Origin: a virus | Taxonomy: Duplodnaviria > Heunggongvirae > Uroviricota > Caudoviricetes | DNA length: 64,000 bases | Reading direction: 5' to 3' (one strand) | IMG/VR virus record: IMGVR_UViG_3300042946_001496 | Shown here: piece by piece, positions 30,873 to 64,000 of the stretch | Layout of the letters: the number at the start of each line of letters is the position of its first letter | Position numbering within the stretch: the first letter of the stretch is position 1 | Notes under the pieces: model-generated | Database searches by the model: none | Told to the model about the DNA's origin: nothing | The model's input: the letters and a program-made list of their open reading frames with translations, nothing else | Translations under genes and position numbers: made by a program

Positions 30873-31322
30873 ATGAAAACATTCAATAAATGGCTAGAAA
30901 ATTTATCACAAGGCTGGGAGCTTTTTCACGGATCAAATAGCGAAGAGTTTGTTGGTCAAATTAGAGCTAACGAGCGTGATAGTGGTTGGTTTGGTTCCGG
31001 GTTTTATCTTAGTGCAATACCATCTTATGCTAAACGATGGGGTAAAAATGTGCACAAAATGATTGTTCCTTTCGGAAAATTTGCAAAGATTCAAGTAATT
31101 GGAAATTATAAAGAAATATTATTTGGAGACGCTGAATTTGCTAATCAAGAAGCTGGAGGGCAGGAAGCGTTTAATGATAATGAACATCTTTGGTCTAAAA
31201 AATTCACCGAAGCACTAAAAAAACAAGGATATGATGGAGTTAGAGTTGATTTTGATGAACATAAAGACGTAGAAGTAGTAATCTTTGATCCTTCAAAAAT
31301 ACAAGTGCTTGGAAAAATTTAA
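30873..31322 (+). CDS. hypothetical protein with MKTFNKWL leader; possible ADP-ribosyltransferase-like fold (weak)
   Basis: LFHGSN..GSGFYLS..E pattern is only suggestive. Confidence 0.45.
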   Translation: MKTFNKWLENLSQGWELFHGSNSEEFVGQIRANERDSGWFGSGFYLSAIPSYAKRWGKNVHKMIVPFGKFAKIQVIGNYKEILFGDAEFANQEAGGQEAFNDNEHLWSKKFTEALKKQGYDGVRVDFDEHKDVEVVIFDPSKIQVLGKI

Positions 31323-31408
31323 AACTTTCTGCTTGTCATACAATCTTTTTTATGCTATGTTTTTCGACGGAAGTTCTCCATTGTGATATTTCTATCGAAA
31401 GGGCAAAC

Positions 31409-32716
31409 ATGAAATGGCTTAATGAAAATTGGCTTAAAATATTTATGCTAATTCTTCTTGTGTTCGGGTACTCGCTAGCCTCTAATCAATATTTTTTACA
31501 GCGACAAAAAGCAGACACCTCCGTTGCTTTAGAAAATTTTCAAGAAAACAAAACACCTGAAAGAAATATCTCCAATCTAGAAAGTGGTGGATATATTTTT
31601 GGTTGGATGGTTGTGGGTCTAATTTCTTTTCTTACACTGAAAGGTTCTATTAAATTGAGTAATTCAACAAAAGTTGCCGGCATTGTTCTTCTTGCTTTAA
31701 GCACAACTGGCTGTGGACTCATAAAACCGTTTAAGCCTGTTAAACTTGAAGCTATTGAGAGTCATGAAGTAGCATTTCTGATTCCTTATCTCCAAGATGG
31801 AACAACTCAAGAAAGCTCAAAAAACGAAGAATTCTATAAGCAGCGACTTGTTTTTGCACAGCAAGTTCAAATTCCCCAGCAATGGGTTCAACAAGGTTAT
31901 GAATTTATCGGCTATAATGGTCAATGGCGAGATGCTGCTGTATTAATTAAGGTGGACACACAACCAGTGACGAGAGAATGGACTGCTGATCCTAATAGCG
32001 GTACTAGCGACAGAAATGAAGCTATTTGGGTTATGACGAGTGACCAAGTAGAATTTTCAACTGGCTGGAATGTTACTGCTAGAATTAAAGATCGTGATGA
32101 TTCTGTTAAATTCCTGTCTAACTATCCTAATGGTAGTTTGCAAAAAGTTCTAGATCAAGAAGTTCATGCTAAATTGCAAACCACGTTTGCCCTTGCTGTA
32201 ACTGATCTTCCAATGGATACTCTGAGAAAGGCAGCAACTCCAGTTATTGAGAAAACCTCTAAAGAGGTTATTGATTTCTTTGAGAAAAGAGGAGTAACTA
32301 TTACCAATCTTGGTATCACCGGCGGATTTGTCTATAAAGATAAGACAATTATGGACACTCTTGTGAAGGTATTTAATGCTGAACAAGATAAAAACATCGC
32401 CGCTGCCGCTACTGCTGCACAGGAAGAAAAGAACAAGAAAATTCTTTTAGAGGCTAGTGGTAAAGCCGACGCTCTTCTTAAGGAGAAAAAAGCGGAAGCT
32501 GATGGTATCAAAGCTATTGCTGAGGCAAAGTTTTATGAGCTTGAGAAGGCAAAGCAGAATCTACAAGATTATGTATCACTTAAGAACCTTGAATTGACTA
32601 AGGAACTTATCAATAAGTGGGATGGTAATTTTCCAGAATACTATATGGGTAGTGGTGGGGATCATCCCAACACTCTCTTGCAACTGCCCGCATTTGGAAC
32701 TCAAAAGAAAGAGTGA
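31409..32716 (+). CDS. membrane protein, possible SPFH/band-7 (flotillin-like) family
   Basis: N-terminal TM helices; C-terminal Ala/Glu/Lys coiled region (AEADGIKAIAEAKFYELEKAK). Confidence 0.4.
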   Translation: MKWLNENWLKIFMLILLVFGYSLASNQYFLQRQKADTSVALENFQENKTPERNISNLESGGYIFGWMVVGLISFLTLKGSIKLSNSTKVAGIVLLALSTTGCGLIKPFKPVKLEAIESHEVAFLIPYLQDGTTQESSKNEEFYKQRLVFAQQVQIPQQWVQQGYEFIGYNGQWRDAAVLIKVDTQPVTREWTADPNSGTSDRNEAIWVMTSDQVEFSTGWNVTARIKDRDDSVKFLSNYPNGSLQKVLDQEVHAKLQTTFALAVTDLPMDTLRKAATPVIEKTSKEVIDFFEKRGVTITNLGITGGFVYKDKTIMDTLVKVFNAEQDKNIAAAATAAQEEKNKKILLEASGKADALLKEKKAEADGIKAIAEAKFYELEKAKQNLQDYVSLKNLELTKELINKWDGNFPEYYMGSGGDHPNTLLQLPAFGTQKKE

Positions 32717-32726
32717 ATAAATATTG

Positions 32727-32762
32727 ACTTCGCCGCCCATACCAAATAGTATGGGCGGCGAA
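32727..32762 (+). terminator. strong GC hairpin (terminator-like, no T tract)
   Basis: cttcgccgcccata..tatgggcggcgaag. Confidence 0.35.
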
Positions 32763-32786
32763 GCCACCTATTAAAGAGAGATTTTT

Positions 32787-33536: not shown

Positions 33537-33552
33537 AAACAGGAGAGTATAT

Positions 33553-33944: not shown

Positions 33945-34151
33945 CTATTTTGGTTTTTTATTGCCAATCAATATATTTCCAAAATAAGAATAATACCACT
34001 CTTTGTTTTTATCTTTATATCTTTCGCTTAATGTATATTGATGTATACTTTTTTTACCTGCCGCTATGAATGTGGGAATAGGATCCTTTTCATTAATTTC
34101 TACAATTTCGCCATCATAAGGACCGCCAACTAATTCTGCTTTATTTTGCAT
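33945..34151 (-). CDS. hypothetical protein
   Basis: Minus-strand ORF inside the minus-strand block. Confidence 0.4.
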   Translation of the reverse strand: MQNKAELVGGPYDGEIVEINEKDPIPTFIAAGKKSIHQYTLSERYKDKNKEWYYSYFGNILIGNKKPK

Positions 34152-34206
34152 AGTATAAATATATACTCATGAAATGAAATATATATTCACAGTAAGATTA
34201 TCTAAT

Positions 34207-34665
34207 CTAGTGCCAAGTAACATTTATTATACGATTGGCTGGTATATCTTCCATGATTACAAATGTTTTTGTTAAATCTATGAATTCCTCAACTAGATTT
34301 CCATCATATAGTTCTTCATAATCATATTCTTCTTCTTTAAATTTTTCTTGAACATTTGATTTTTTTTCAAAATAAAATCCATTTTCATCAATTATTGCTC
34401 CATGATCAATCAAGCTTCCTAAATCTGCACCTTTTTTAAGACCCTTAACATTAATTGTTAATTGAACACCCTCTTTATAAGAGGTTTTTGATAAACTTAA
34501 AAATATTGGCACGATTCCATAAGCTCTTTTTAACCAATCATTGGATCCCTTTGTATAAAAAGATTTTTGGTTTATTTTTAATCCTTTCTGTTTTATCTCT
34601 TCGTAATTTTCAACATTTGTTGTGTGAAAGCCTATATCTTTTAATAAATATTGTTTGAAATTCAT
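34207..34665 (-). CDS. hypothetical protein with MNFKQYL leader
   Basis: Minus-strand ORF. Confidence 0.5.
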   Translation of the reverse strand: MNFKQYLLKDIGFHTTNVENYEEIKQKGLKINQKSFYTKGSNDWLKRAYGIVPIFLSLSKTSYKEGVQLTINVKGLKKGADLGSLIDHGAIIDENGFYFEKKSNVQEKFKEEEYDYEELYDGNLVEEFIDLTKTFVIMEDIPANRIINVTWH

Positions 34666-34673: not shown

Positions 34674-35105
34674 TTACTTTACGTTACCAATAGTAATATG
34701 GTATTCATTTCTTTTAACTCCACCAAAAAGAGAATCATCTCTATATCTCTGTAGACCCAACTCTTCTCTTATATCACCTATATCTTCACTGTAGGCGTTT
34801 ATCCAAAAATATTTATCGTCTCTTTGAACGTCTGTGTCATACTCGAAAGATATTTTTTTCCCTTCATGTTTTCCCCAATTTTCCATTTTAGTTGGCTGTT
34901 CTTTTTTTAACCTAACTATGGTTATATGAGCAGGATACATTTGCGGCTTTACATTATAATATTTTGGAATTAAACTTCGATAATAGTTACTTATATTTTG
35001 ATCTATATTTGCAACAACCTTAATCCCAGGACCGTATTTTACAATAGCGGTTCCTTGAAATTTATATTCTTCAAACAGCCTCATCCAATCAAGAAAATTT
35101 TGCAT
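34674..35105 (-). CDS. 2H phosphoesterase superfamily protein (LigT / cyclic phosphodiesterase-like)
   Basis: Two H-x-T-x motifs (AHITIVRL and YHITIGNV) about 80 residues apart in a 143-aa protein. Confidence 0.6.
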   Translation of the reverse strand: MQNFLDWMRLFEEYKFQGTAIVKYGPGIKVVANIDQNISNYYRSLIPKYYNVKPQMYPAHITIVRLKKEQPTKMENWGKHEGKKISFEYDTDVQRDDKYFWINAYSEDIGDIREELGLQRYRDDSLFGGVKRNEYHITIGNVK

Positions 35106-35119
35106 ATAATATATAATAT

Positions 35120-35714: not shown

Positions 35715-36224
35715 ATGTTAAAGTTTAAAATTTGGGTAGAATATAACGATACTATACAAGAAATTAATTCTATATTACATGAATATAGTGCATTAATCCC
35801 AAGATTGGAACTAAAATTTAATAATCTCGATAAATTAGAAGAAATAATAAAAGGCGGTTATGCAAAGGAAGTTTCAATACAAAGCAGACACGGAAGAAGA
35901 ATAGCTGAACCGGCAGCAATTGTTTTTAATAAAATAAGACATTTATTTACAAATTATGATGAAATAAGAGATAGATTAAATAAACATGTTCAACTTGGAG
36001 ACATACCAATTTGCGAAGAACTTGAAATGCTTGAAAGTATTTACTCTCAAATGAAAAAATTGGTAATAATGATAATAAACAGTATAAATTATCCTTTTAA
36101 CGTATATGATAATGTAACAATAAGAAAAAAAGACGAAATTGCAAGAGCTGCAATGAAGTATTTTAACAGAGAATCATCAAACATAGATGCTTCTCGCAAG
36201 AAATATTGCTTACAAGAAAGTTGA
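35715..36224 (+). CDS. hypothetical protein (MLKFKIWV leader-like)
   Basis: ORF. Confidence 0.45.
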   Translation: MLKFKIWVEYNDTIQEINSILHEYSALIPRLELKFNNLDKLEEIIKGGYAKEVSIQSRHGRRIAEPAAIVFNKIRHLFTNYDEIRDRLNKHVQLGDIPICEELEMLESIYSQMKKLVIMIINSINYPFNVYDNVTIRKKDEIARAAMKYFNRESSNIDASRKKYCLQES

Positions 36225-36228: not shown

Positions 36229-37413
36229 ATGAACAAAATAACAGGCGAATATTGGATAATAGATGGAAGGGCTGATTTTGCTGATGGTGATGTTGGAGAT
36301 AAGAATCACGAAATGATAGCAATAGAGCATATTTGTTCTAAATATTTAGATCAAATTTATGATTGTGCCAAAGAGTTGAATTTAAATATACCTAGTTTAC
36401 ACTCAATGGAAGATGAATCCGTAGAATCTGCTCATTCTTTATTATCTTTGATTTTTGAAAAACTAAAGTCTTGGGAAATGGTACAAAAAGAATGTAATAT
36501 TGATATTGAAACGCTTAAAATAATAACAAGTAATAATAGTGATCCTAGACTTTATGTCATGAAAAGAGAAAATTGGATTGCTGTAAGAAATAATAATATA
36601 GAGCTATACAGCTTAGATCAAAAAAAATTAAAAGAATTAGGTTCTGGGCTTGATGATATTGTTGAACAGGAGTTCATGGGGGATGACATTAATGATGAAG
36701 AATTAGAATTTAATCTTTATGATCATAAAAATAACAAAAGCATATATTTAACACTTCAAGATATAAAAGAAAAAAGTGCGTTTAGACCTCAAACAGCACC
36801 CCAAACCACATACAATAGACTTGCTTTACCTGCTGCTAAAGGAAAAATGTATGGAAGAGAATTGTGGAGAGGAACAAGCGAAAGTTTTAAAAACTGGTTA
36901 AGCTTAGTCGAGAATATTCAATTGAACGAAAGCAAACACATGCAGAATAATAGTGCCGCATGTGAGCATTGCAAGAAAAGTTTAAAAGTTGTCGACATTA
37001 TTATTGGGAGACACATGTTTCCTATCGGGCAACTTTTTGAATGCGTTTGCAAAAAATCAAAAGTTTTTACCAATACTATACGAAACATTGAAAACTTATT
37101 GGAATATATTGATGGAAACAGATCAAGTTACTATAATGGTTTTTGCAATGATAGAAAGTGCGGATATTGTTTTAATTATTTAACACCTCTACTTAATGGT
37201 GTAGATGTTTCAAAAGACATGGAACTAAGCACACATGATACGAGAGCAGATAGATATGGTTGTTTAAAATGTCCTGAAAATCAAAATATACTAATAGTAG
37301 GGCAGGCTTTTTTACCAGAAGGAGATAAAACAAGTAACCATTTCATAGAGTTTTATACTAAAAACAAAGATAAAGTTGAAGCTTTGTACAAGAAATTAAA
37401 AGGAGAGACATGA
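36229..37413 (+). CDS. hypothetical Cys-rich protein (394 aa)
   Basis: Internal ATG taken as the start; several CxxC pairs in the C-terminal half. Confidence 0.5.
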   Translation: MNKITGEYWIIDGRADFADGDVGDKNHEMIAIEHICSKYLDQIYDCAKELNLNIPSLHSMEDESVESAHSLLSLIFEKLKSWEMVQKECNIDIETLKIITSNNSDPRLYVMKRENWIAVRNNNIELYSLDQKKLKELGSGLDDIVEQEFMGDDINDEELEFNLYDHKNNKSIYLTLQDIKEKSAFRPQTAPQTTYNRLALPAAKGKMYGRELWRGTSESFKNWLSLVENIQLNESKHMQNNSAACEHCKKSLKVVDIIIGRHMFPIGQLFECVCKKSKVFTNTIRNIENLLEYIDGNRSSYYNGFCNDRKCGYCFNYLTPLLNGVDVSKDMELSTHDTRADRYGCLKCPENQNILIVGQAFLPEGDKTSNHFIEFYTKNKDKVEALYKKLKGET

Positions 37414-38738
37414 ATTTCCACAAACTTTATCAATTAATTAATGAAAATACAATAAGCCAAGAACTTAAAAAGTTTGACAAAGTAATACTAAAAACTGCAG
37501 TAGACATGGCAGACAAAAAAATGAGTACACAGTTCCCAAGTCTAAACGTAAATTCAAAAAACATTTTTATAAAATGGTTTTTATTCGTAGCACTAAAAAA
37601 TCTAAACTTGGATAAAGATTCACGACATCTGACCGATCAAGAGATCGATCGACTTGATCTAATCGGTCCTTGGATAGAAGAACTAAGAGGCGAATTTGGA
37701 GATTTTATTGCACATAACATTGATGATGATGGCAATTTAAGTGCCCAACTTGCAAGTAAATTTAATAACCCAGCGTTTAAAATAGATGATTTACGTATTT
37801 TAGACCGTAAATATCATGAAGCCTTAGCTAAAGGTGCCATCGTAAAACAAGGAGCAAAAGGAAAACCAATATTAACTTTTAATGATGGTTATAGCTGGGT
37901 AGATCTTGAAAAAGGATATTGTGAAAAAGAAGGCAGAAGCATGGGTCACTGTGGTAATGTTAATACTCAACCGGGTGATAGCATTCTTAGTCTTAGAGAT
38001 AGAAAAAATATACCGCATCTTACATTTATTTTTAACAATGGTTATTTAGGAGAAATGAAAGGCAAAGGCAACAGTAAGCCCTCTCAATCTTATCACAAGT
38101 ATATTGTTGAATTGCTTAAACTTCCAATAATTAAAAATATAATTGATGGAAGATATTTAACTGAAAATGATTTTAAGCTAAGTGATTTAACTGATGAGCA
38201 AAGAGAAGAAATTTTTAATGTTAATCCTAAGTTTAAAACTAGATATATGGTTGAAAAATTAAAAGAAAACCAAAATCTTTCAAAAGAAGAGTTTAATGAA
38301 CTTGAAAGTTTTGCCTTATCCAGAACCGGGGCTTCTTTTTCAGAAAGACAAAAAGTAAAAGCAAGTTTGGCAAAAAATACTAACACTCCTGGTGAGGTTT
38401 TAACTGCTTTGTTTAATCAATCAAAAGAAGATAATTTTGATGGTGATGACAGAATGATACTGCAGTATATTGCTGGAAATCCTAACACTCCGACAAAGGT
38501 TTTAAAAGGATTGGCAGAACTTAACAGTATTCGAATCAGATCAGAATTAGCAAAAAATGACAACACACCTTTAGAAGCTTTAGAAATTCTTGCAAATGAT
38601 GTTTTTGCTAGCATAAGAATGTATGCTGCTATGAATGCCAATGTTTCAAAAGAACTTTTAATAAAATTAAGCAAAGATAAAGAACCGGATGTAAAAAACA
38701 CAGCATTGGCATACATAAAAGAGCGTGGATTCAATTAG
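37410..38738 (+). CDS. PcfJ-like domain protein with C-terminal leucine-rich-repeat-variant (LRV)-type repeats
   Basis: MNFHKLYQL leader; GRSMGHCGNV...ILSLRDRKNIPHLTFIF core; repeats LAKNTNTPGEVL / AGNPNTPTKVL / LAKNDNTPLEAL. Confidence 0.55.
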   Translation: MNFHKLYQLINENTISQELKKFDKVILKTAVDMADKKMSTQFPSLNVNSKNIFIKWFLFVALKNLNLDKDSRHLTDQEIDRLDLIGPWIEELRGEFGDFIAHNIDDDGNLSAQLASKFNNPAFKIDDLRILDRKYHEALAKGAIVKQGAKGKPILTFNDGYSWVDLEKGYCEKEGRSMGHCGNVNTQPGDSILSLRDRKNIPHLTFIFNNGYLGEMKGKGNSKPSQSYHKYIVELLKLPIIKNIIDGRYLTENDFKLSDLTDEQREEIFNVNPKFKTRYMVEKLKENQNLSKEEFNELESFALSRTGASFSERQKVKASLAKNTNTPGEVLTALFNQSKEDNFDGDDRMILQYIAGNPNTPTKVLKGLAELNSIRIRSELAKNDNTPLEALEILANDVFASIRMYAAMNANVSKELLIKLSKDKEPDVKNTALAYIKERGFN

Positions 38739-39174
38739 ACTTAGGCTTTAAACCTATTTTGCAAAGAATCTTGAAACCATCATGACCAATTGCTCCATAA
38801 TTATATTCTTTGCCTCTATACTCAAAAGTAACGTGATTTCTAAATTCTTCGCCCATCCTAATTACGAAGTTTGCAATTCCTGATTGAACTTTTGGAGGTT
38901 GAACTTTTGCCATCCATGGAGCATTTTTACTTGCCCAATATCTTTGAAATTTATTTACAACTGATCTAATTTCATCTGGGCTAATGGGTTCATAGCCAAA
39001 TTTTTCTGCGAGACTGGCTGCGATTTCATAACAATTATGATCTGCTTGGTTCCAAGCATTTGGACCTTTTATTAAATTTTGGCTAGCGGCTAACTCTGAG
39101 CCTAGTCTGTTTACATGCGGTTTTCTTTCATAACCAACACTTGAAAAATCTTCTAGCCACTGCTTAAACTTCAT
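38731..39174 (-). CDS. hypothetical protein with MKFKQWL leader
   Basis: Minus-strand ORF. Confidence 0.5.
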   Translation of the reverse strand: MKFKQWLEDFSSVGYERKPHVNRLGSELAASQNLIKGPNAWNQADHNCYEIAASLAEKFGYEPISPDEIRSVVNKFQRYWASKNAPWMAKVQPPKVQSGIANFVIRMGEEFRNHVTFEYRGKEYNYGAIGHDGFKILCKIGLKPKSN

Positions 39175-39235
39175 AATAAATATATACTATTTAAATATAT
39201 AAAATATCGTGAGTTTTTACAAATTACGGATATCA

Positions 39236-41341
39236 ATGTTAAACTTTAAACAATATATTAACGAAATTAGACAAAAAGATCTTGAAAATATAGATTTAAA
39301 CAGGAACTTATTGTTTAACAATATATTTGGAGATAAGTTAAGAGTATTAATTCCTTTAGGAGAAGATCTAGAAACCAGGGAGTTTATGGATGAGCTAGAA
39401 GACCTGGGTTATATAGTAAACTACAGTGATTTGATTCATAAAAAAATAATATACAAAAAAATAAAAACAAAAGAAGGAACAAAAGAAAGAGCTGAAAAAG
39501 TAGGAAAAGTTCTACAAAATGAAATTAAAAAATTATCATCACAGTCGCAATTAGACGTTGTGAGCAGAGATAATGTACCCCCAGAATCGTGGCAAGAATA
39601 TATTAAAAAATACACCAAAATGTTAGATTGGTGGCAAAAAAATAGTGAAAATTTAAAAAATAGTGACAGTGGCTCAAGCGTAATAATAAGCAGAAGTCCT
39701 ATCGATCTTGTTAGAATGAGTGATCATGACAATATATCAAGTTGCCATAGTCCTGATGGCAGTTATTTTAAATGTGCCAAACAAGAAGCTAAAACTGGTG
39801 GTGCTGTTGCTTATGTCGTTAAGAACAGTGATTTAAAAGACGTCGATATACAAAAGCCAGAATTGTTTGAAGACGAAGAAAGAAAAATAGAAGGAATAGT
39901 TCCTCTTGAAAGACTTAGACTAAGAAGATTCTCTAAAGGAGAGATAGATTTATTGGTTCCGGAAATAAAAACTTATGGAACATCAAATATCGGATTTTAC
40001 GGCAAAGTTAAACAATGGGCTAAAGATTCTCAAAAAGATACTTTAGAAAAGTTAGATCCAGAAAAAGATTATGAAAATTTTGATTTAAAAGGAGGAAGCT
40101 ATCAGGATAGTCCAGCAGAAAAAATTTGGAGTAATTTTTTTGACAATAGCGTTAAAGGACATAAAACAAGTTTAGACGATGAAGATGAGAATGAAGGTGA
40201 AAATACTGCGGATGATATTTATAATGCGGCTGAAGCTCAAATAAGACAACATCAAAGAGTTTGGAAGCACTTTAGTGTTCATCACGACATATATGATAAT
40301 GAAAACAATGTTTTAGACTATACCGCTTATTGTAGCATTTCTATTCCTAGAAAACTATTTACATTAGAATTTTCAGATGAATGGAATGATAAAAATTATA
40401 GAGAAATAAAAAACGTAATAGAAAGCAATATTGATATTTATAGTATTTCCGATATAAGTCTTAATGACGAAGATGATAAAAACTATCACTTTAATATATC
40501 AGTTCAGAATGAAGATCCCTATCATCAAAACAATCAACTAGTCAGGTTGGAGCACTTCTTGGATTACATTGATGACATAGACGGAAACTTTGACACACAC
40601 GTTTCAAAAGTTTATAGAGGGTTAATCAACAAAGGTTATATTAAATCTGTTGGTGGTAAACTAACGTTTAAAAACTTTACAATAGAAGAAGATGATTATG
40701 AAGGAACAACAATAAAAAGTGTAGAAGAAAAAATAGCATACTTAAAAGACTTTCCTGTAATTGAAAATATTGGTGGAAATTATAGAGACAAGCAAATGTT
40801 TACAAGTAAACAAAAAATATACATAAATGATTTTAGAAACAAACTTATAAACTCCGCTGAATTTAAAAGTCTTAAAATATTTCCTTTTAATTTAAATCAA
40901 AATGAAATAAATTTTTATTTAATAGAAGGAATAACCAAGATTGATAGAACAAAAGAGCCAGCATTTTCAGGAAGTTATAGCGATCCTGATAATTTTGATC
41001 CTATTGCTCCTAAAATAACAAAGCTTACTGGATGGGTTTATTTTGAATTAGAAAAAACAATTGGATTTGATATAACCTCAAACACAAAAACAATACAGTT
41101 CTTAAAAAATATTGATAATAATTGGGACTTTTATATTAAAAAATTAAATAAATTTTTTGAATCATTTTTAAAAATGAAATATAGTCCAATTGATCAATGG
41201 GACAACTCCATGGATAAACCTCGATCCCCGAAGCCAGAAGACCATATTAATTTTAACAAAAAAATCTTCCCTCAAAAACCAGTAGTCAAAAAATCAGAAA
41301 AACAACTAACATTCAAAGATTTCGTCAATAAAAAGCGATAA
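39236..41341 (+). CDS. large hypothetical protein (about 700 aa) with MLNFKQYI leader and a weak PcfJ-like core
   Basis: NISSCHSPDGSYFKC..GGAVAYVV; start chosen at the leader Met (the ORF track starts 27 nt upstream). Confidence 0.5.
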   Translation: MLNFKQYINEIRQKDLENIDLNRNLLFNNIFGDKLRVLIPLGEDLETREFMDELEDLGYIVNYSDLIHKKIIYKKIKTKEGTKERAEKVGKVLQNEIKKLSSQSQLDVVSRDNVPPESWQEYIKKYTKMLDWWQKNSENLKNSDSGSSVIISRSPIDLVRMSDHDNISSCHSPDGSYFKCAKQEAKTGGAVAYVVKNSDLKDVDIQKPELFEDEERKIEGIVPLERLRLRRFSKGEIDLLVPEIKTYGTSNIGFYGKVKQWAKDSQKDTLEKLDPEKDYENFDLKGGSYQDSPAEKIWSNFFDNSVKGHKTSLDDEDENEGENTADDIYNAAEAQIRQHQRVWKHFSVHHDIYDNENNVLDYTAYCSISIPRKLFTLEFSDEWNDKNYREIKNVIESNIDIYSISDISLNDEDDKNYHFNISVQNEDPYHQNNQLVRLEHFLDYIDDIDGNFDTHVSKVYRGLINKGYIKSVGGKLTFKNFTIEEDDYEGTTIKSVEEKIAYLKDFPVIENIGGNYRDKQMFTSKQKIYINDFRNKLINSAEFKSLKIFPFNLNQNEINFYLIEGITKIDRTKEPAFSGSYSDPDNFDPIAPKITKLTGWVYFELEKTIGFDITSNTKTIQFLKNIDNNWDFYIKKLNKFFESFLKMKYSPIDQWDNSMDKPRSPKPEDHINFNKKIFPQKPVVKKSEKQLTFKDFVNKKR

Positions 41342-53101: not shown

Positions 53102-53150
53102 AATATATGTATAGTAGAATTATTGCTAATGATCAATATATAAAGTTATT

Positions 53151-54416
53151 ATGAACTTTTATGAATTCTACAATCTAGTCGCTGAAAACGTTGAAGAAAA
53201 TTTTGACAAATGGCTAGATGCTTTGATTAAGTATGCAAAAAAAGATGAATTAGTATTCAGCGGCTGGTTCGATGTGCGTGCATTTAATCGAGTTGTTATC
53301 ATAAATGTTCTTAAAGAGCAAAATCTTGAAAACTTTAATTGGTTTAGTTTCTGTATTGGTTACTATGCTGTCAAACCAGCGTTTAGAAAAGAAGACTTAG
53401 AGATGGCAATAACTGCAACCAAAAAAGCTGTTGATAGTGGCGAGTTGCCTAAAGCTGAGATAGGAGTCAAGGGTTGGTTTAAAATTGGCTTCGAAGCACC
53501 TGAAAGAGTAAGAAAATATCTTGCAGGTCAAAATCAATTAAGTAACAGAGAAGCTTTAAAAAGAAAAAAGCTTGGTCAAGCAGAATTAGACCGTAAGTTT
53601 GTACAATTAATAGCAAGTGAAAAAGAATATAAAATATACTATTTGCCTAAAAATGCAATAGCTTATGCTGACAATGAACTAAACGCAAATATTGAAGACA
53701 TAAAACAAAGACACCAAATATTATGCAAGTTAGGAAAAGATACCGAGTGGTGTACCGCTCAACCTAGTTGGGATGCTCACGAAAGCTACATCAATGATGA
53801 TATTTACATTATTCATCAAATAATAAATATGGATGAAATTCCAATTTATCAATTTACAGATTGTGGAAATCCTAATGAACAGTTTATGGACAATGAAAAT
53901 AATGATGTTGAATATTTGCCTGGAAAGGTTTTCAATATTTTAAAAATACACTTACCAGAAATAATAAGTTGTTATGGTTTAAAAAAAGAATTAGAAGGTG
54001 TTGAAGACTTCTTAAATAGAGAGCTTAAAGATTTAGACGGAATTAAAATAAAAGAAATGGATAAATTGCTCTTATCTTTATTCAAAAAGAAAGACATTAA
54101 TAAAATAAAAGATGTAATGAACAAACTTATTGAATACATAGACAATAAAATAAATTTTATTAAATGGTCAAGCCGGGCGATGAGGTTAACACCAAGCTAC
54201 ACCAAAATTTTAAACTTTACATACATAATTGTTAAAGAAATCGCTCAGCTATCAAGAGAGTCGGGAATCGTTTTCAATATGCCGCAAGCTGAAAAGTTAA
54301 AAGATTTGTTGAAAACAATGGTTGATCTAGACAAAGCTGTAACACACCACTGGCAGAATAAAGATCTTTATAGAAATGTTGACTCACTATTAGCAAAAGA
54401 AACTGGTGAAGATTGA
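53151..54416 (+). CDS. PcfJ-like domain protein with MNFYEFY leader
   Basis: LGKDTEWCTAQPSWDAHESYINDDIYIIHQI core. Confidence 0.5.
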   Translation: MNFYEFYNLVAENVEENFDKWLDALIKYAKKDELVFSGWFDVRAFNRVVIINVLKEQNLENFNWFSFCIGYYAVKPAFRKEDLEMAITATKKAVDSGELPKAEIGVKGWFKIGFEAPERVRKYLAGQNQLSNREALKRKKLGQAELDRKFVQLIASEKEYKIYYLPKNAIAYADNELNANIEDIKQRHQILCKLGKDTEWCTAQPSWDAHESYINDDIYIIHQIINMDEIPIYQFTDCGNPNEQFMDNENNDVEYLPGKVFNILKIHLPEIISCYGLKKELEGVEDFLNRELKDLDGIKIKEMDKLLLSLFKKKDINKIKDVMNKLIEYIDNKINFIKWSSRAMRLTPSYTKILNFTYIIVKEIAQLSRESGIVFNMPQAEKLKDLLKTMVDLDKAVTHHWQNKDLYRNVDSLLAKETGED

Positions 54417-54594: not shown

Positions 54595-54735
54595 ATGTCG
54601 CTTAATTTTTATAAATTACATTTGTTGATAAACGAGTACGGTGAAAAAACAATAGAAGCTCTTGTTCAAAAGTTTAAAAAAGAAGAGCCTGGTCTTACTG
54701 ATCAGATAATAAGATCATTGTACTCGTTGTCTTGA
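54595..54735 (+). CDS. leader-only small ORF (46 aa)
   Basis: MSLNFYKLHLLINEYGEK resembles the MNFHKLYQLINEN / MNFYKL leaders of the large proteins. Confidence 0.35.
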   Translation: MSLNFYKLHLLINEYGEKTIEALVQKFKKEEPGLTDQIIRSLYSLS

Positions 54736-57850: not shown

Positions 57851-57979
57851 ATTATATTAAAACTATAGGTGAAGAAAAGTTAGAAGAAATATTAGGCATG
57901 GATCGATCGTGGGATACACGCCCTGAATTTGAAAATTATAGTTTAGTTGATGATATTATCAAAAATTATATTGCGTAAT

Positions 57980-58210: not shown

Positions 58211-58283
58211 GCGAGTAATAAGTAGGTCTAAATCTTATTGAAGAGCTTTTTTAAATTACTTATTTTCATTCATATATAAAAAC

Positions 58284-58928
58284 ATGGAATTCAAAAATTG
58301 GCTTATAGAACATGATTATTTAAAAGACCTTGATCCACTCTCACATGAAAAAGAAAACGATAGAGCAAACGCATTAAATAAATTTTTTCCTGACGGCGAT
58401 ACATATCCGCAAATTAATCTTGAAAACAAAAGAATTGTAATGAGTAAGTACAGGCAGCCGCCAATTGTTATACCATACAAAGGCACGCGGAGCGATAAAC
58501 CAAAAGGTGGATTGTGGTATGGAGAAGGCAATGAGTGGATTAGCTTTATACAATATAATATCCCAAATCTTATTGCCATGTTTGTTCATGAAATTTTTAT
58601 AAATCCATCAAGAATGTGTATAATTCATGATGAAAAAACATTAGAAGATTTTACTTGGAAATATCGTCTAGATGCCGAATCTGAAGTAATTGATTGGGAT
58701 AAAGTTGCTAGCGAATTTGATGGAATAGAGTGTTTTGGCAATGGATTCGATAAAGAAAATTGGCAATATAGTTGGGATGTTCCAAGCGGTTGTATTTGGA
58801 ACAACACAGCATTAAAAGATTCTAAATTGTTATCTGTCTACGATGTGCATAACAAAAAATTCAGAAAAGCAAACGAATTAGGCGTGTATGCAGGAAACGC
58901 AAGTAAAATAAAAAATCCAATTAGATAA
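58284..58928 (+). CDS. hypothetical protein with MEFKNWL leader
   Basis: ORF; interrupts the Zn-ribbon array. Confidence 0.5.
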   Translation: MEFKNWLIEHDYLKDLDPLSHEKENDRANALNKFFPDGDTYPQINLENKRIVMSKYRQPPIVIPYKGTRSDKPKGGLWYGEGNEWISFIQYNIPNLIAMFVHEIFINPSRMCIIHDEKTLEDFTWKYRLDAESEVIDWDKVASEFDGIECFGNGFDKENWQYSWDVPSGCIWNNTALKDSKLLSVYDVHNKKFRKANELGVYAGNASKIKNPIR

Positions 58929-60698: not shown

Positions 60699-60699
60699 T

Positions 60700-60999: not shown

Positions 61000-61212
61000 A
61001 TGAAAAAATCTAACAAAGAACTGCTAGACAGCTTTAAAGTTTATTATTGTCCTAATTCTGGAAGATCCTACCCAGTAAACAACCACCCTAAAACAAAATT
61101 AATTAAAACCTTGTTTCAAAATAAATTTAATTATACTTGGTACGAAGGTTACGAGTGTCCAATTTGTCTTTGGCACTGGCTGGAGCATGAATTAAATGAA
61201 CAAACTAAGTAG
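61000..61212 (+). CDS. Zn-ribbon LLDSF-family small protein
   Basis: MKKSNKELLDSFKVYYCPNSG...CPICLWHW; preceded by a 29-aa remnant (60914-61003). Confidence 0.55.
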   Translation: MKKSNKELLDSFKVYYCPNSGRSYPVNNHPKTKLIKTLFQNKFNYTWYEGYECPICLWHWLEHELNEQTK

Positions 61213-61423
61213 TTTTATAGAAAAAAAATGTCCTTGGCACAATCTTCAATTAACAGGACCAGACTTAAGTTGTGAAAAGTGTGGATTCTGGACGAATGAA
61301 AGAGTCAATAGTTTATCCACCTGGCAAAACTATTTTTTATTTATTAAAAGTGCTATGCGCAATGTTGAAGACGGAAGTGAACTACGATTGCAATTACTTA
61401 AAGAATATTATGATGAACAATAA
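61196..61423 (+). CDS. Zn-ribbon LLDSF-family small protein
   Basis: MNKLSSFIEKKCPWHNLQ..CEKCG; ends LKEYYDEQ. Confidence 0.55.
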   Translation: MNKLSSFIEKKCPWHNLQLTGPDLSCEKCGFWTNERVNSLSTWQNYFLFIKSAMRNVEDGSELRLQLLKEYYDEQ

Positions 61424-61565: not shown

Positions 61566-61622
61566 AAACTATATTCGAGAAATACGCACTAATTGTCACC
61601 GTTGGTATGGTGTCATGCAATC

Positions 61623-61856: not shown

Positions 61857-62026
61857 ACGAATCTAACAAAAAACTCTTAGACAGCTTTGAAATTCCTGAA
61901 TGCTGCAGATGTGGCAGCACTTTGGTTAACCGTGTATCTACCAAGAATTTACAGCGAATTTACTATTGTCAGCCTTGCTCGTGTTACACTGTATATCCTG
62001 AAAACGAAACAAAACAAGCTTCTTAA
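61853..62026 (+). CDS. Zn-ribbon LLDSF-family small protein
   Basis: MNESNKKLLDSFEIPECCRCGS...CQPCSC; 57 aa. Confidence 0.5.
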   Translation: MNESNKKLLDSFEIPECCRCGSTLVNRVSTKNLQRIYYCQPCSCYTVYPENETKQAS

Positions 62027-62058
62027 TTAGATTTGAAAAATGAAATTATTATCAACAA

Positions 62059-62077
62059 TTTGGTGATACGCTAGGGT
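62059..62077 (+). promoter_or_regulatory. conserved GGTGATACGCTAGGGT promoter-like motif immediately abutting the start codon
   Basis: The motif's 3' half is replaced by the ATG; this would give a leaderless or very short-leader transcript. Confidence 0.4.
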
Positions 62078-62290
62078 ATGATGAACAAAAACACTAAAAA
62101 ACTACTTGACTCTTTCACTAAACCAATTTGCAAAAATTGTAATGAAGAATTAGAATTATTTGCCTTTTCTTTATCAGATGATTCAAAACCAATTAAAATC
62201 ATTGATGCCGCTGGTAATTTCGGAGGACGGTGTATTAACGAAAAATGTAGCCATAGATTTAAAACCGTTAGGATAGATAATTATCAGTGA
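62078..62290 (+). CDS. Zn-ribbon LLDSF-family small protein
   Basis: MMNKNTKKLLDSFTKPICKNCNEE...INEKCSHRFK; close paralog of the 61410 gene. Confidence 0.55.
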   Translation: MMNKNTKKLLDSFTKPICKNCNEELELFAFSLSDDSKPIKIIDAAGNFGGRCINEKCSHRFKTVRIDNYQ

Positions 62291-62347
62291 TGCTTTTTAC
62301 CTAAAAACTAAAAAACAAGTTGGCATCGAAGGGATGTAAAGATAATC

Positions 62348-64000
62348 ATGAATTTCTACAAACTAGACTTTTTATTAGAAGGATTGGCAGAAGATTTCAT
62401 AGTCAAAAATCCAGATTTAAAGGTCGCCTATGACAAAGGTATTAAAAACATAGGACTATTGACATGGTTAAATAGTGTTAAAAATCAAGAGCCAATAGAA
62501 GATATAATTCCTGTTATACTAAGTTTTAATAACAACAAACAAAGATTAAAAGAAAAAGATATTAATGCTTATAAAACGGCAGCAAATTTAAGACAAACTT
62601 TAGAAAATCTAGGTAGATCAAAAACTAAACAAGATAAAATATTAAAAAGTGAAGAAACTACTAAAATAGGTGAATTTGGAGACTGGCTTGTTGTTATGCC
62701 TCATACTAGAGAAAGTAGTTGTTTATGGGGAAAAGGAACAAGCTGGTGTACTGCTGCAACAGCATCAGGAAACTTATTTTTAAGTTATACAGGAAAAAAA
62801 CAAAGAAAGATTTTTTTATATTATTTAATTAAAAAAGGAGCAGATTCTGTAAAAGATCCTGATTCAAAGATAAGCATAGGGATCAAGAATAAAGTCATGA
62901 TAATGGATGGTATGGATGGAGGATTAACAGTTAACGCTGCAAATATTGGAATGAATGAGGAAAAACTAAAATCGGTATTAGGTTCAAATTATGATCAAAT
63001 AATCAATGCTATAAAACAGCATAATAATACTATAGAAAAACATCCTGCTCTAGATCAGATAGAAAAAATAGCAAGCAGCAAAAACCCAGAAGACTTAGAA
63101 AATTTTATTAGAGGTATGAGTGAATATGAAGCAATCGATTTTATAGAAAATTTAATGGACCACAATCTTTCACCAGAATTGTTTTTATATGTAATAAAAA
63201 GAAAAAGTGTTGGGGACAGAAGATTTAGTGGAATAAACAAAGAAGATATTGCAATTTTACTTAAAAATGAAAACTTACTGCTTTCTATACTAGAGAAAAA
63301 CTTATCTGATGATGACGTTTATGCTATTTTAGATAGTTTATATTCTAATTCTGGACTCGGATTTTCCCGTGCTCTTGTTGATCCGGAAAATATAATCTTG
63401 AATGTAGCAAAACATAAAAAAGAACTAACTCCTAGAAATGTTTACGACATATTATATTATGCTAATATTACAAACAATTCTCATAGTTTATACTTGGATT
63501 TGATCAAGATTTTAGGAAAAGAAAACTTAATCAAATTAAGAGATTATCCTGATGAAAAATTTGTTTTGATGGACATAGTTTATACTCTACTTTTAGTAGC
63601 TCCTAACAAAAAAGAAACGGCAGATATTTTAGGTAAAAAAAATATTAACAAACTAAGTTCTGATCGTGTTCTTGATCTGTTGCACTACGACTCAGATAAA
63701 AATACAATGGCAGAAATTCTTGGACAAGAAAACATAAACAAACTGAGTGATGGTGAAATTAGAAGATTTAAGAATTATAAAGATAAAGATGAAATTATAA
63801 ACATAATCATAGATTATAAAAAAGAGCTAACTTCAGACAATATTCTTTGGCTTTTACAAAATTCTTCTGACAAAGAAAATTTAGCAAGAAAAATAAAAAA
63901 AGATATTGACAAACTGAGTGGGTATGAAATTTTCATTTCAATTATGAGTACAAATAACCATAATGAAATGGTAAATCTTTTAGGAAAAGAAAACTTTGAA
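62348..64000 (+). CDS. large PcfJ-like domain protein with MNFYKL leader and C-terminal repeats (3' end beyond the window)
   Basis: ESSCLWGKGTSWCTAA...IFLYYLIKKG core; repeated ILGKENI.KLS modules; no stop before the window end. Confidence 0.55.
   Translation, partial: MNFYKLDFLLEGLAEDFIVKNPDLKVAYDKGIKNIGLLTWLNSVKNQEPIEDIIPVILSFNNNKQRLKEKDINAYKTAANLRQTLENLGRSKTKQDKILKSEETTKIGEFGDWLVVMPHTRESSCLWGKGTSWCTAATASGNLFLSYTGKKQRKIFLYYLIKKGADSVKDPDSKISIGIKNKVMIMDGMDGGLTVNAANIGMNEEKLKSVLGSNYDQIINAIKQHNNTIEKHPALDQIEKIASSKNPEDLENFIRGMSEYEAIDFIENLMDHNLSPELFLYVIKRKSVGDRRFSGINKEDIAILLKNENLLLSILEKNLSDDDVYAILDSLYSNSGLGFSRALVDPENIILNVAKHKKELTPRNVYDILYYANITNNSHSLYLDLIKILGKENLIKLRDYPDEKFVLMDIVYTLLLVAPNKKETADILGKKNINKLSSDRVLDLLHYDSDKNTMAEILGQENINKLSDGEIRRFKNYKDKDEIINIIIDYKKELTSDNILWLLQNSSDKENLARKIKKDIDKLSGYEIFISIMSTNNHNEMVNLLGKENFE

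What the first reader, a model, noticed from the sequence alone, without database searches (positions are those of the whole stretch)
30873..64000. Shared N-terminal leader MNFKxWL / MNFYKL on at least 10 otherwise unrelated large proteins, plus a 46-aa leader-only ORF
- Proteins at 30873, 34207(-), 34674(-), 35715, 37410, 38731(-), 39236, 53151, 58284 and 62348 begin with near-identical M(K/N)F(K/Y)x(W/Y/F)(L/I) leaders.
- The 39236 protein carries it after a possible mis-called upstream start.
- Bodies downstream of the leader are unrelated.
- ORF 54595-54735 encodes essentially only the leader (MSLNFYKLHLLINEYGEK...).

A common N-terminal peptide on diverse large proteins is reminiscent of capsid-targeting or ejection signals (compare T4 CTS and phiKZ inner-body proteins) or of secretion-system signals.
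Basis: seen in the sequence. Interest (0 to 1): 0.75.

Follow-up and report, generated by a model that had tools for sequence, protein, structure and literature searches.

The report
T4-like capsid-targeting leader on phage cargo
Eleven genes in this fragment of an uncultured freshwater jumbo phage begin with the same 10-14-residue peptide, which looks and behaves like the phage T4 signal that loads proteins into the capsid for injection, so it probably marks anti-defence enzymes shipped inside the virion.

Summary
Eleven ORFs between 30.8 and 64 kb start with M-x(0-2)-F-x-x-(W/Y/F/L)-(L/I/V), usually followed by Glu. Sequence simulations give 0.03 such ORFs.

Selection acts on the peptide, not the RNA. 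Codons vary synonymously, the register shifts, and the same leader recurs in related jumbo-phage contigs of 31-56% GC.

The conserved positions match the mapped determinants of the T4 capsid targeting sequence MKTYQEFIAE: aromatic residues 4 and 7 for targeting, aliphatic 8 and Glu 10 for cleavage. In two protein families the leader/body junction is (L/I)-x-E, the T4 gp21 protease site.

Most leader genes lack a Shine-Dalgarno site. They sit 4-8 nt after an ATATATAA box that resembles the T4 late promoter. In relatives the same box drives tail-tube, neck and adaptor genes, and one relative encodes gp23-like and gp21-like head proteins.

Cargo includes an AcrIF11-like ADP-ribosyltransferase, an Acb1-like phosphodiesterase and a polyvalent-protein domain.

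- Half the proteins are small (143-214 aa).
- Two bodies share a motif and are distant paralogues.
- The 46-aa "leader-only" ORF is a truncated remnant.

Packaging and cleavage are inferred, not shown. I call this a new variant of a known kind.

The parts
30859..30866 (+). ATATATAA box, 6 nt before ATG 30873; no Shine-Dalgarno site. Read as a T4-late-type promoter giving a leaderless or nearly leaderless mRNA.
30873..31322 (+). 149-aa ADP-ribosyltransferase with leader MKTFNKWLE. The leader is a separate low-confidence helix (residues 2-13) ahead of a confidently folded ART domain.
   Evidence: Pfam ART-PolyVal 1.6e-6. AlphaFold pLDDT 88 overall, 53 for the leader block. Foldseek top hits: 6kyf, deposited as an anti-CRISPR protein (AcrIF11 from my own knowledge), at 8e-7, and cyanophage A4 pre-ejectosome chain at 3e-4. 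Most of 20 homologues carry the leader 4-5 residues before the HGS strand.
34207..34665 (-). 152-aa protein of unknown function with leader MNFKQYLLKD. It has an SD-like upstream sequence and lies downstream of 35105(-). Residue 10 is Asp, not Glu.
34674..35105 (-). 143-aa 2H phosphodiesterase of the Acb1 type (anti-CBASS family) with leader MQNFLDWMRLFE. Homologues in RaK2 and LR756511 lack the leader.
   Evidence: phrog_12204 1e-18 and weak 2H-SAK. tblastn hits to jumbo phages including phage G gp116, which PMC12484599 annotates as Acb1. Leaderless-peptide homologues seen.
35106..35119 (.). 14-bp palindromic spacer ATAATATATAATAT between divergent starts 35105(-) and 35120(+). It supplies a TATATA box to both genes.
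35715..36224 (+). 169-aa protein of unknown function with leader MLKFKIWVE. TATATA box at 35703-35708, 6 nt before the ATG.
37410..38738 (+). 442-aa protein with leader MNFHKLYQLINE, then conserved NTISQ. It has a normal SD and overlaps the stop of the upstream gene. Its core domain (about residues 117-285) recurs inside 2-3 kaa polyvalent proteins; LRV/HEAT-like repeats lie at the C-terminus.
38731..39174 (-). 147-aa near-orphan protein with leader MKFKQWLED. TATATA box at 39181-39186, 6 nt before the ATG.
39196..41341 (+). TATATA box (39196-39201), GTG 39209, then ATG 39236, opening a 701/710-aa protein. Leader MLNFKQYINE is preceded by a second leader-like copy, VSFYKLRIS. Which start is used is unresolved.
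   Evidence: a tandem leader in another family is seen
53137..54416 (+). TATATA box (53137-53142) plus a 421-aa protein with leader MNFYEFYNLVAE. Its family has the N-terminus MxF(Y/K)E(W/L)xxL(I/L)NE|NVExNF, and its members sit on contigs up to 362 kb.
54595..54735 (+). 46-aa ORF MSLNFYKLHLLINEYGEK.... This is the truncated N-terminal remnant of a roughly 474-aa leader-bearing protein.
58273..58928 (+). TATATA box (58273-58278) plus a 214-aa protein with leader MEFKNWLIE (phrog_8582, unknown function).
62348..64000 (+). >=550-aa protein running off the window end, with leader MNFYKLDFLLE. It is distantly related to PA5oct gp205, a virion protein by mass spectrometry, and to the 53151 family through the GKxTxWCTA motif.
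28306..28687 (+). Same ATATATAA-N6-ATG arrangement in front of a 122-aa gene WITHOUT the leader (MLKKLTIENF). This shows that box and leader are separable. Two further box genes without a leader are 35120-35713(+) and 33945-34151(-).

Best explanation
The shared N-terminus is a capsid-targeting propeptide of the T4 type.

Proposed mechanism:
1. The genes are transcribed late, together with virion genes, from a short T4-late-like box (ATATATAA). The box sits so close to the ATG that the mRNA has no leader, or almost none.
2. The first 10-14 residues form an amphipathic helix. Its two aromatic positions (F at 3/4, W/Y/F/L three residues on) dock the protein onto the scaffolding core of the assembling prohead.
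3. A gp21-family prohead protease then cuts after the Glu that closes the leader, typically at (L/I)-x-E.
4. The mature enzyme stays inside the DNA-filled head and enters the next host together with the DNA.
5. The cargo is a varied set of host-takeover and anti-defence proteins: an AcrIF11-like ADP-ribosyltransferase, an Acb1-like 2H phosphodiesterase, a domain otherwise found in injected polyvalent proteins, and many unknowns.

What is shown:
- The motif, its restriction to N-termini, and its peptide-level conservation across genomes of 31-56% GC.
- Its modular presence or absence on otherwise homologous proteins.
- Its statistical coupling to the box.
- Use of the same box by structural genes in relatives.
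- A T4-type head module in a distant relative and T4-type neck/tail genes on a contig linked by the ART gene.
- The (L/I)-x-E junction.

What is inferred: that the box is a late promoter and the mRNAs are leaderless, that the leader binds the core, that it is cleaved, and that the proteins are packaged and ejected.
For: - N-terminus-specific and far above chance.
- Peptide-level selection. In the 595-kb relative LR756511, about 50 ORFs carry the leader. Codons vary freely (F is TTT 32 / TTC 18; L is TTA/CTT/TTG; E is GAA/GAG) and the register varies. The same leader occurs in IMG/VR jumbo contigs of 31-56% GC.
- Match to the T4 CTS. T4 IpII/IpIII begin MKTYQEFIAE. T4 targeting maps to residues 4 and 7 and processing to residues 8 and 10, and gp21 cuts after L/I-X-E (PMC9026906). 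The leader's conserved positions are the same ones.
- Glu at residues 8-14 occurs in 38/47 leader ORFs against 311/999 others (p=1e-11).
- The junction is LxE or IxE in 37/45 representatives of the 37410 family, and the commonest leader length is 12. The 53151 family shows the same ...L(I/L)NE|NVE junction.
- Modularity. The Acb1-like domain lacks the leader in RaK2 and LR756511. Some ART homologues lack it too.
- The AlphaFold model puts the leader in a detached, low-confidence helix.
- Coupling to the box. TAnATA 4-7 nt before the ATG is associated with the leader at p=8e-22 in LR756511 and p=3e-8 in the window. Spacing in LR756511 is 4-5 nt and there is no -35 element. The T4 late promoter TATAAATA spans -13 to -6 (PMC1524935).
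- The same box precedes genes for tail tube, head-tail adaptor, virion structural and tail proteins and a gp13-like neck protein.
- T4-type head module in LR756511, a distant relative sharing 6-7 proteins with the window: gp23-like E 6e-35, gp21-like E 7e-23.
- T4 gp13/gp15/sheath/gp19 genes surround the ART+Acb1 pair on a contig that shares only the ART (60% identity) with the window by tblastn.
- Cargo typical of injected proteins: ART-PolyVal, 2H-SAK, HAD-SAK, NADAR and papain-like peptidases. The 37410 domain sits inside polyvalent proteins with 2-4 ART-PolyVal domains. The ART fold matches a cyanophage pre-ejectosome chain.
- PA5oct gp205, a distant homologue of 62348 with N-terminus MKLFEVFTLYED, is a virion protein by mass spectrometry.
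Against: - There are no virion proteomics, N-terminal sequences or transcript 5' ends for this phage or any close relative. No cultured phage with the leader was found.
- The window is a 64.9-kb contig fragment with no head genes of its own. The T4-type head module is shown only in LR756511, which shares just 6-7 proteins with the window. The T4-type neck/tail genes are on a contig linked to the window only by the ART.
- A profile of the leader scores the T4 CTS at only 4.6 bits, in the top 2% of other N-termini. The resemblance is one of pattern, not statistically decisive homology.
- The canonical [LIV]xE is present in only 13/47 LR756511 leaders. Many read W-L-E. Window gene 34665(-) has Asp instead of Glu.
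- About 50 cargo species per genome, some over 1000 aa, is far more than T4 packs.
- The box in front of the major capsid gene of LR756511 is not conserved across its clade. The "late promoter" reading therefore rests on tail, neck and adaptor genes.
- A few leader hits carry HTH or sigma-like domains that need not be packaged. A Toprim/DnaG hit is likely a chance match to the regex.
Confidence: 0.6

Rival explanations
1. The leader is a real peptide tag used late in infection, but it does not load the capsid interior. It could be a docking helix for another phage assembly or hub: tail or baseplate, a chaperone, a membrane-proximal factory, or a protease that activates the enzymes.
For: The evidence shows co-regulation with structural genes in general, mainly tail, neck and adaptor genes, not specifically head genes. 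Leader genes lie next to tail and neck genes in one contig linked by the ART gene. Peptidase C39/C70-like proteins themselves carry the leader.
Against: The position-by-position match to the T4 CTS determinants and the (L/I)-x-E junction point to the head core and the gp21-type protease. A gp21 homologue exists in the distant relative LR756511. No other known phage assembly uses such a tag.
Confidence: 0.14
2. The conserved first codons serve translation of leaderless mRNAs. The 5'-terminal coding sequence, or the nascent peptide, would promote 70S initiation or early elongation when there is no Shine-Dalgarno site.
For: Box and leader are strongly coupled (p=8e-22 and 3e-8). Most leader genes lack an SD.
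Against: - Codons vary synonymously and the register shifts by one to two codons.
- The leader also sits on genes with a normal SD: 34665(-) and 37410 in the window (62348 also has no box), and 17 of 41 strict-regex matches in LR756511 lack the box.
- Sixty box genes in LR756511, including structural ones, and three in the window have no leader.
- The leader is kept from 31% to 56% GC.
Confidence: 0.08
3. The similarity is only inherited. A promoter-plus-first-codons cassette has been copied by recombination in front of new genes, or the genes are old paralogues, and the peptide itself has no function.
For: - 53151, 62348 and the ancestor of the 54595 remnant are distant paralogues.
- Tandem leader copies exist.
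- Leader genes are scattered on both strands like inserted cassettes.
Against: - A neutral remnant would not keep four specific positions across phages whose other genes share 30-60% identity and whose GC ranges over 25 points.
- It would not keep a Glu-ending junction in 37/45 divergent family members.
- Most bodies show no detectable relationship.
Confidence: 0.06
4. The motif is an artefact of AT-rich composition and biased N-terminal amino-acid usage (Lys, Asn, Phe are AT-rich codons).
For: The window is 32% GC. K, N, F, Y and I are favoured by such genomes.
Against: - 11 observed against 0.03 in composition-matched simulations, and 0.08 after shuffling the real N-termini.
- Only 6 of 18 occurrences are not at an ORF start.
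- The same leader appears at 42% and 56% GC.
Confidence: 0.01

Closest known systems
Capsid targeting sequence (CTS) of phage T4 internal proteins IPI, IPII, IPIII (MKTYQEFIAE)
   Same: - A 10-14-residue N-terminal peptide shared by otherwise unrelated proteins.
- Hydrophobic or aromatic residues at positions 4 and 7, an aliphatic at 8 and Glu at the end. The junction fits the gp21 L/I-X-E site.
- Cargo with anti-defence roles.
- A phage lineage with T4-type head, neck and tail genes (PMC3012670; PMC9026906).
   Different: - The consensus is F/W rather than Y/F, and many leaders read W-L-E.
- The repertoire is about 11 genes in 33 kb here and about 50 per genome in a relative, against three in T4. 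It includes proteins over 1000 aa.
- T4 ip genes have a normal Shine-Dalgarno leader. Here most genes abut a late-promoter-like box with no SD.
- Packaging is proven for T4 and only inferred here.
T4 Alt, the packaged and injected ADP-ribosyltransferase
   Same: An ADP-ribosyltransferase made late and predicted to travel in the head to act at the start of the next infection. Its termini are processed by the prohead protease (PMC9026906).
   Different: The window enzyme is a 149-aa minimal ART. Its closest fold match is 6kyf, deposited as an anti-CRISPR protein, which I recognise from my own knowledge as AcrIF11. It is not an Alt homologue, and its target is unknown.
Propeptides of ejection and inner-body proteins of giant phages phiKZ, 201phi2-1 and SPN3US
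   Same: Many head-internal proteins are processed by a gp21-related protease C-terminal to Glu. Paralogues can share an identical N-terminus, such as SPN3US gp53/gp54 MANFVKSKLARESVE (PMC5694885).
   Different: Those propeptides are mostly 80-130 residues and the cleavage motif is A/S/G-X-E. No short consensus tag shared across unrelated proteins has been described there. Those phages belong to a different lineage with virion RNA polymerases.
Polyvalent proteins of phages and conjugative elements (Iyer et al. 2017, as cited in PMC7824862)
   Same: The domain repertoire overlaps: ART-PolyVal, 2H-SAK, HAD-SAK and papain-like peptidases. The 37410 core domain occurs inside such proteins. Both are proposed to be delivered with the DNA to counter host defence.
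   Different: Polyvalent proteins are single giant polypeptides. Here each domain is a separate small protein with its own tag and its own promoter.

Membership tests
T4-type capsid targeting sequence (N-terminal propeptide of head-internal proteins) | Short (about 10-20 residue) peptide at the extreme N-terminus, shared by proteins whose mature parts are unrelated | tested here: met
   Eleven ORFs carry it. It is restricted to N-termini. BLASTP finds no relation between bodies except one weak pair. The commonest leader length is 12 in the 37410 family.
T4-type capsid targeting sequence (N-terminal propeptide of head-internal proteins) | Targeting determinants at residues 4 and 7 (Tyr4, Phe7 in T4; PMC9026906) | tested here: met
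   F is nearly invariant at residue 3-5, and W/F/Y three residues later, in 52 LR756511 leaders and the window leaders. This is a pattern match only; function was not tested.
T4-type capsid targeting sequence (N-terminal propeptide of head-internal proteins) | Leader ends in a prohead-protease site, L/I-X-E in T4 | tested here: inconclusive
   - Met in six window leaders: LFE, INE (three times), LIE, LLE. One more has VAE.
- LxE or IxE in 37/45 representatives of the 37410 family.
- Glu is enriched at residues 8-14 (p=1e-11).
- Only 13/47 LR756511 leaders have [LIV]xE. Three window leaders read W-L/V-E and one has Asp.
T4-type capsid targeting sequence (N-terminal propeptide of head-internal proteins) | The phage builds its head on a T4-type core with a gp21-family protease | tested here: inconclusive
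   - The window holds no head genes; the contig is only 64.9 kb.
- The distant relative LR756511 (6-7 shared proteins) has gp23-like (6e-35) and gp21-like (7e-23) genes and a scaffold-like gene between them.
- A contig sharing the ART at 60% identity has T4 gp13, gp15, sheath and gp19 genes.
T4-type capsid targeting sequence (N-terminal propeptide of head-internal proteins) | Synthesis late in infection, together with head assembly | tested here: inconclusive
   The box resembles TATAAATA and has no -35 element. In relatives it precedes tail-tube, adaptor, neck and virion genes. There are no transcript data. The box upstream of the capsid gene is not conserved.
T4-type capsid targeting sequence (N-terminal propeptide of head-internal proteins) | The protein is physically incorporated into proheads, the leader is removed, and the mature protein is ejected with the DNA | not testable with these tools
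   The phage is uncultured and no cultured relative carries the leader. The only indirect hint is that PA5oct gp205, a distant homologue of 62348, is a virion protein by mass spectrometry.
Polyvalent proteins | Many effector domains fused in one very large polypeptide | tested here: not met
   The window proteins are single-domain, 143-701 aa. Only the domain types overlap.
Sec/Tat or other secretion signal peptides | Positively charged n-region followed by a hydrophobic h-region of 10 or more residues (or a twin-arginine motif) and a signal-peptidase site | tested here: not met
   Read directly from the sequences. The leaders are 10-14 residues, alternate polar and aromatic residues, contain Glu, have no hydrophobic run and have no RR motif.

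The most novel reading that the evidence does not exclude
A large clade of uncultured T4-related jumbo phages carries a portable three-part cassette: an 8-bp late promoter, a start codon at the transcript's 5' end, and a 12-residue capsid-targeting propeptide. The cassette can be placed in front of any gene, on either strand. With it these phages would load dozens of different enzymes into the capsid. The load would include an anti-CRISPR-like ADP-ribosyltransferase and an anti-CBASS-like phosphodiesterase, so counter-defence would arrive with the DNA before any phage gene is expressed. If so, the leader motif alone would let one read the "injected proteome" of uncultured phages from sequence. 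It would also show a split, modular alternative to polyvalent proteins.
Probability: 0.4. Interest if true: 0.8.

Novelty: new variant of a known kind. Interest (0 to 1): 0.62.

Why it matters
Which proteins a phage injects with its DNA decides the first minutes of infection, yet this is known for only a handful of cultured phages.

If this leader works like the T4 CTS, a simple sequence rule would predict the packaged cargo of a whole clade of uncultured jumbo phages. The related capsid gene alone has 388 relatives in IMG/VR.

That cargo appears rich in anti-defence enzymes that other phages express only after entry. Candidates include an AcrIF11-like ADP-ribosyltransferase, an Acb1-like phosphodiesterase, NADAR and RNA-repair domains.

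Two further consequences follow:
- The known CTS principle would extend from three T4 proteins to about 50 proteins per genome.
- Late genes in these phages may be expressed from leaderless mRNAs, which is unusual for T4-like phages.

The leader could also serve as a tool for packaging foreign proteins into large capsids.

Tried and rejected
- **Composition artefact.** Rejected by Markov simulations, N-terminal shuffles and recurrence at 42-56% GC.
- **RNA-level element.** Rejected because codons vary synonymously, the register shifts, and the leader and box occur apart.
- **Secretion signal.** Rejected from the sequences, which have no hydrophobic core.
- **Two different leaders (MNFKxWL and MNFYKL).** Rejected because orthologues interconvert between them.
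- **"Leader-only" gene at 54595.** Rejected; it is a truncated remnant.
- **Close relatives in the phage collection.** megablast and tblastn with the 701-aa protein found nothing. IMG/VR held no relative of that protein. The 147-aa protein has only three homologues among 5.8 billion proteins.
- **Recovering a longer source contig.** This failed. The longest is 64,901 bp.
- **PA5oct as a proteomic test bed.** Its first 50 kb hold no leader genes, so I did not fetch the rest.
- **Cultured phages with the leader family.** None found.
- **Statistical link to the T4 CTS.** A leader HMM gave only a top-2% score.
- **T4 gp55 late sigma factor.** phmmer did not find it in LR756511 or the window. A sigma70_r2-like 173-aa gene lies near the tail genes on the ART-linked contig but was not analysed.
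- **Conserved box upstream of the capsid gene across 26 clade members.** Not conserved.
- **PcfJ relationship of the 53151 family.** Rejected.

Full report
**1. What the window is**

The window is 32% GC. It has no tRNA genes and almost no Pfam-annotatable genes. It is nearly the whole of a 64,901-bp freshwater metagenome contig, seen in Lake Mendota and related JGI and Logan samples.

It has no close relative among 50,697 deposited phage genomes. Its few recognisable proteins point to jumbo phages:
- The 2H phosphodiesterase at 34674-35105(-) matches RaK2-like phages, phage G and Atu_ph07. Its best match, at 51% identity, is the 595-kb uncultured phage LR756511.
- Several other window genes match IMG/VR contigs of 251 and 323 kb.

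**2. The observation**

I tested chance with a regex built from the leaders.
- It hits 18 times in all six reading frames. Twelve hits sit directly behind the first Met of a long ORF, and one more sits behind GTG 39209.
- Composition-matched third-order Markov simulations give 0.03 matching ORFs (max 1 in 200), against 11 observed.
- Shuffling residues 2-14 of the real N-termini gives 0.08.
- The motif was defined after seeing the data, but the difference is far too large for that to matter.

All leader genes lie between 30.8 and 64 kb. The first 30 kb is an array of small plus-strand genes with strong Shine-Dalgarno (SD) sites.

- Half of the proteins are small (143-214 aa).
- The bodies are unrelated by BLASTP. 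However, the 53151 family and 62348 share a CxxGKxTxWCTA motif (hhalign probability 88%), and a related 474-aa protein shares the region. That subgroup is a diversified paralogue family.
- The 46-aa ORF at 54595 is 64% identical (E 8e-16) to the first 39 residues of that 474-aa protein and is followed by 500 bp without an ORF. It is a truncated remnant, not a leader-only gene.
- For 39209/39236, public gene calls use ATG 39236. The stretch from GTG 39209 encodes a second leader-like copy. A tandem leader also occurs in one ART homologue.

**3. The peptide is selected, not the RNA, and it is one leader**

I fetched the whole of LR756511 (42% GC). About 50 of its ORFs, scattered on both strands, start the same way: MKTFNQWLE, MLNFKEWLIDE, MKTFAEWMEE and similar.
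- At the conserved positions codons vary freely: F is TTT 32 / TTC 18; L is TTA/CTT/TTG; E is GAA/GAG.
- The Phe sits at residue 3, 4 or 5.

A pattern scan of IMG/VR for box plus MKTFxEW gave 13 hits, mostly on contigs of 181-527 kb and 31-56% GC. Each roughly 10-kb locus held one to four further leader genes that the pattern had not selected.

Within the 53151 family and within the 37410 family (8,172 hits at E<=0.001), orthologous N-termini switch between MNFYEFYNLINE and MxFKEWLLLNE or MKTFIEWLNE.

The leader is modular.
- The Acb1-like domain has no leader in RaK2 or LR756511.
- Some ART homologues lack it.
- In the AlphaFold model of the 30873 protein (pLDDT 88) the leader is a helix, residues 2-13, with low confidence (53), in front of a well-predicted domain.

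**4. A second feature travels with it**

Most leader genes have no SD. Instead an ATATATAA/TATATAT box ends 4-8 nt before the start codon. Of 18 TATATA sites in the window, ten stand in that position in front of a long ORF.

In LR756511 the equivalent is (A/C)(A/C)TAnATA(A), ending 4 or 5 nt before the ATG, with no conserved -35 region. The association between box and leader is p=8e-22 in LR756511 and p=3e-8 in the window.

The T4 late promoter is TATAAATA at -13 to -6 (PMC1524935). By analogy these transcripts would start at or within about 2 nt of the AUG, so the mRNAs would be leaderless.

The two features are separable.
- Window genes 34665(-) and 37410 have the leader with an ordinary SD.
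- Window genes 28319, 35120 and 34151(-) have the box without the leader.
- In LR756511, 60 box genes lack the leader.

Those leader-less box genes include a tail tube protein (phrog_4542, 8e-23), a virion structural protein (phrog_1645, 3e-69), a head-tail adaptor, tail proteins, a K1-lyase-type tailspike domain and an SU10 adaptor. On a contig that carries the ART at 60% identity next to an Acb1-like gene, the pair lies among T4 gp13, gp15, sheath and gp19 genes. The gp13-like gene itself has TATATA-N5-ATG. That contig shares only the ART with the window by tblastn.

I therefore read the box as the late, structural promoter of this lineage. This is an inference. There are no transcript data, and the box in front of the LR756511 capsid gene is not conserved in its clade.

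**5. Comparison with T4**

T4 IpII and IpIII both begin MKTYQEFIAE, read directly from a T4 record.

The literature establishes the following:
- These ten residues suffice to put any fused protein into the prohead (PMC8442874).
- Targeting depends mainly on residues 4 and 7, and processing on residues 8 and 10.
- Asp at position 10 blocks cleavage but not targeting.
- gp21 cuts after L/I-X-E (PMC9026906).
- The T-even internal proteins are diverse anti-defence proteins that share only the CTS (PMC3012670).

The leader here conserves the same positions: an aromatic at 3/4, an aromatic three residues later, an aliphatic next, then Glu. MKTFNKWLEN aligns with MKTYQEFIAE residue for residue.

Glu at residues 8-14 is present in 38/47 leader ORFs of LR756511 against 311/999 others (p=1e-11). 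In the 37410 family the junction between the leader and the conserved NTVSQ segment is LxE or IxE in 37 of 45 cluster representatives, with a commonest leader length of 12. The 53151 family has ...L(I/L)NE|NVE.

LR756511 encodes a gp23-like capsid protein (E 6e-35), a gp21-like protease (E 7e-23) and a scaffold-like protein between them.

Limits of the comparison:
- A leader HMM scores the T4 CTS only in the top 2% of other N-termini.
- Canonical [LIV]xE is present in only 28% of LR756511 leaders; many read W-L-E.
- The window itself carries no head genes.

**6. The cargo**

- **30873** is a minimal ADP-ribosyltransferase. Pfam gives ART-PolyVal. The best fold matches are 6kyf, deposited as an anti-CRISPR protein, at E 8e-7, and a chain of the cyanophage A4 pre-ejectosome at 3e-4, followed by PARPs and exotoxin A. 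I identify 6kyf as AcrIF11, an ADP-ribosylating anti-CRISPR, from my own knowledge.
- **35105(-)** belongs to the 2H family whose phage G member is annotated Acb1, an anti-CBASS nuclease (PMC12484599).
- **37410** has a core domain that recurs inside 2-3 kaa polyvalent proteins carrying up to four ART-PolyVal domains plus GNAT domains. Such proteins are held to be injected with the DNA (PMC7824862).
- **Leader proteins in LR756511** also carry NADAR, HAD-SAK, tRNA-ligase-type 2H, CCA/poly(A)-polymerase, papain-like peptidase and CAP domains.
- **62348** is distantly related to PA5oct gp205, whose N-terminus is MKLFEVFTLYED and which is a virion protein by mass spectrometry.

This is the kind of repertoire expected for proteins that must act the moment the DNA enters.

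**7. Verdict**

The best explanation is a T4-type capsid-targeting propeptide on late-expressed, largely leaderless genes (confidence about 0.6).

The rivals, in order:
- A late-acting docking tag for something other than the head core.
- A translation feature of leaderless mRNAs, which the codon data and the separability of box and leader contradict.
- A functionless inherited cassette, which deep conservation contradicts.
- Composition, which is refuted.

The principle is known from T4. What is new is the distinct consensus, the scale (about 11 genes here and about 50 per related genome), the enzyme cargo, the coupling to a promoter that abuts the start codon, and the occurrence in a large uncultured jumbo-phage clade. 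I found no paper describing it. I rate it a new variant of a known kind.

Noticed in passing
window 28306-28311, 30860-30865, 34160-34165, 35110-35115, 35703-35708, 39181-39186, 39196-39201, 53137-53142, 58273-58278; LR756511 genome-wide: Late-promoter-like box (ATATATAA here, TAnATA in LR756511) ends 4-8 nt before start codons that lack a Shine-Dalgarno site. This implies leaderless late mRNAs, including those for tail-tube, neck and adaptor genes in relatives. Leaderless late genes are unusual for T4-related phages.
   Followed up: partly
window 56859-57185, 57169-57402, 57392-57712, 57947-58210, 58956-59201, 59203-59538, 61000-61212, 61196-61423: A second shared N-terminus, M(N)KKLL(E/D)(S/T)F followed by CPxC-type cysteines and a C-terminal LKEYY(E/D) motif, on eight small (70-110 aa) proteins. 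They look like a tandemly expanded family of small zinc-ribbon proteins with ordinary Shine-Dalgarno sites.
   Followed up: no
window 9928-10188 and 11544-11786: Two small ORFs contain 25-33-residue stretches 60-64% identical to segments of the gp23-like capsid protein of LR756511 (for example DVAQFKRIYIPLIKKL). T4 gp23 itself hits 11544-11786 at E 3e-4. They could be capsid-gene fragments or decoy peptides. ORFs 9928 and 10829 also share an N-terminal IAYxxWxxxGCPE motif.
   Followed up: no
window 39209-39262; protein P0009: Tandem duplication of the leader. VSFYKLRIS precedes MLNFKQYINE in the 701/710-aa protein, and MKTFWEFVQDL precedes RFSRWLEV in one ART homologue.
   Followed up: partly
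window 21110-21358 and 43751-44059; repeat at 19724 and 20694: Two paralogous small proteins (MAGRREGQGAVPLKEFL... and MAGRKEGQKAVDLRKFL..., the second with an acidic DE-rich tail) also have homologues in the 323-kb IMG/VR contig. A 22-bp exact repeat, GATCGTTGTGATTATTGAAAAG, precedes two genes about 1 kb apart.
   Followed up: no
window 31409-32716: The 454-aa ORF called from 31352 more likely starts at ATG 31409, which has an AAAGGG Shine-Dalgarno site. That gives MKWLNENWLKIFMLILLVFG: a leader-like KWLNE directly followed by a transmembrane helix.
   Followed up: no
LR756511 242243-243154(-) and 243133-243588(-); window 13765-14175: LR756511 has a second, diverged gp21-like protease paralogue (E 2e-6). 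The gene next to it is 44% identical to window ORF 13765-14175.
   Followed up: no
locus L127 (ENA ERZ18669989 scaffold_15, 172 kb) 4337-16367: Four tandem or near-tandem paralogues of the 53151/62348 superfamily (542, 452, 814 and 474 aa). Each has the leader and three have a TAnATA box, which suggests a rapidly diversifying cargo family.
   Followed up: partly
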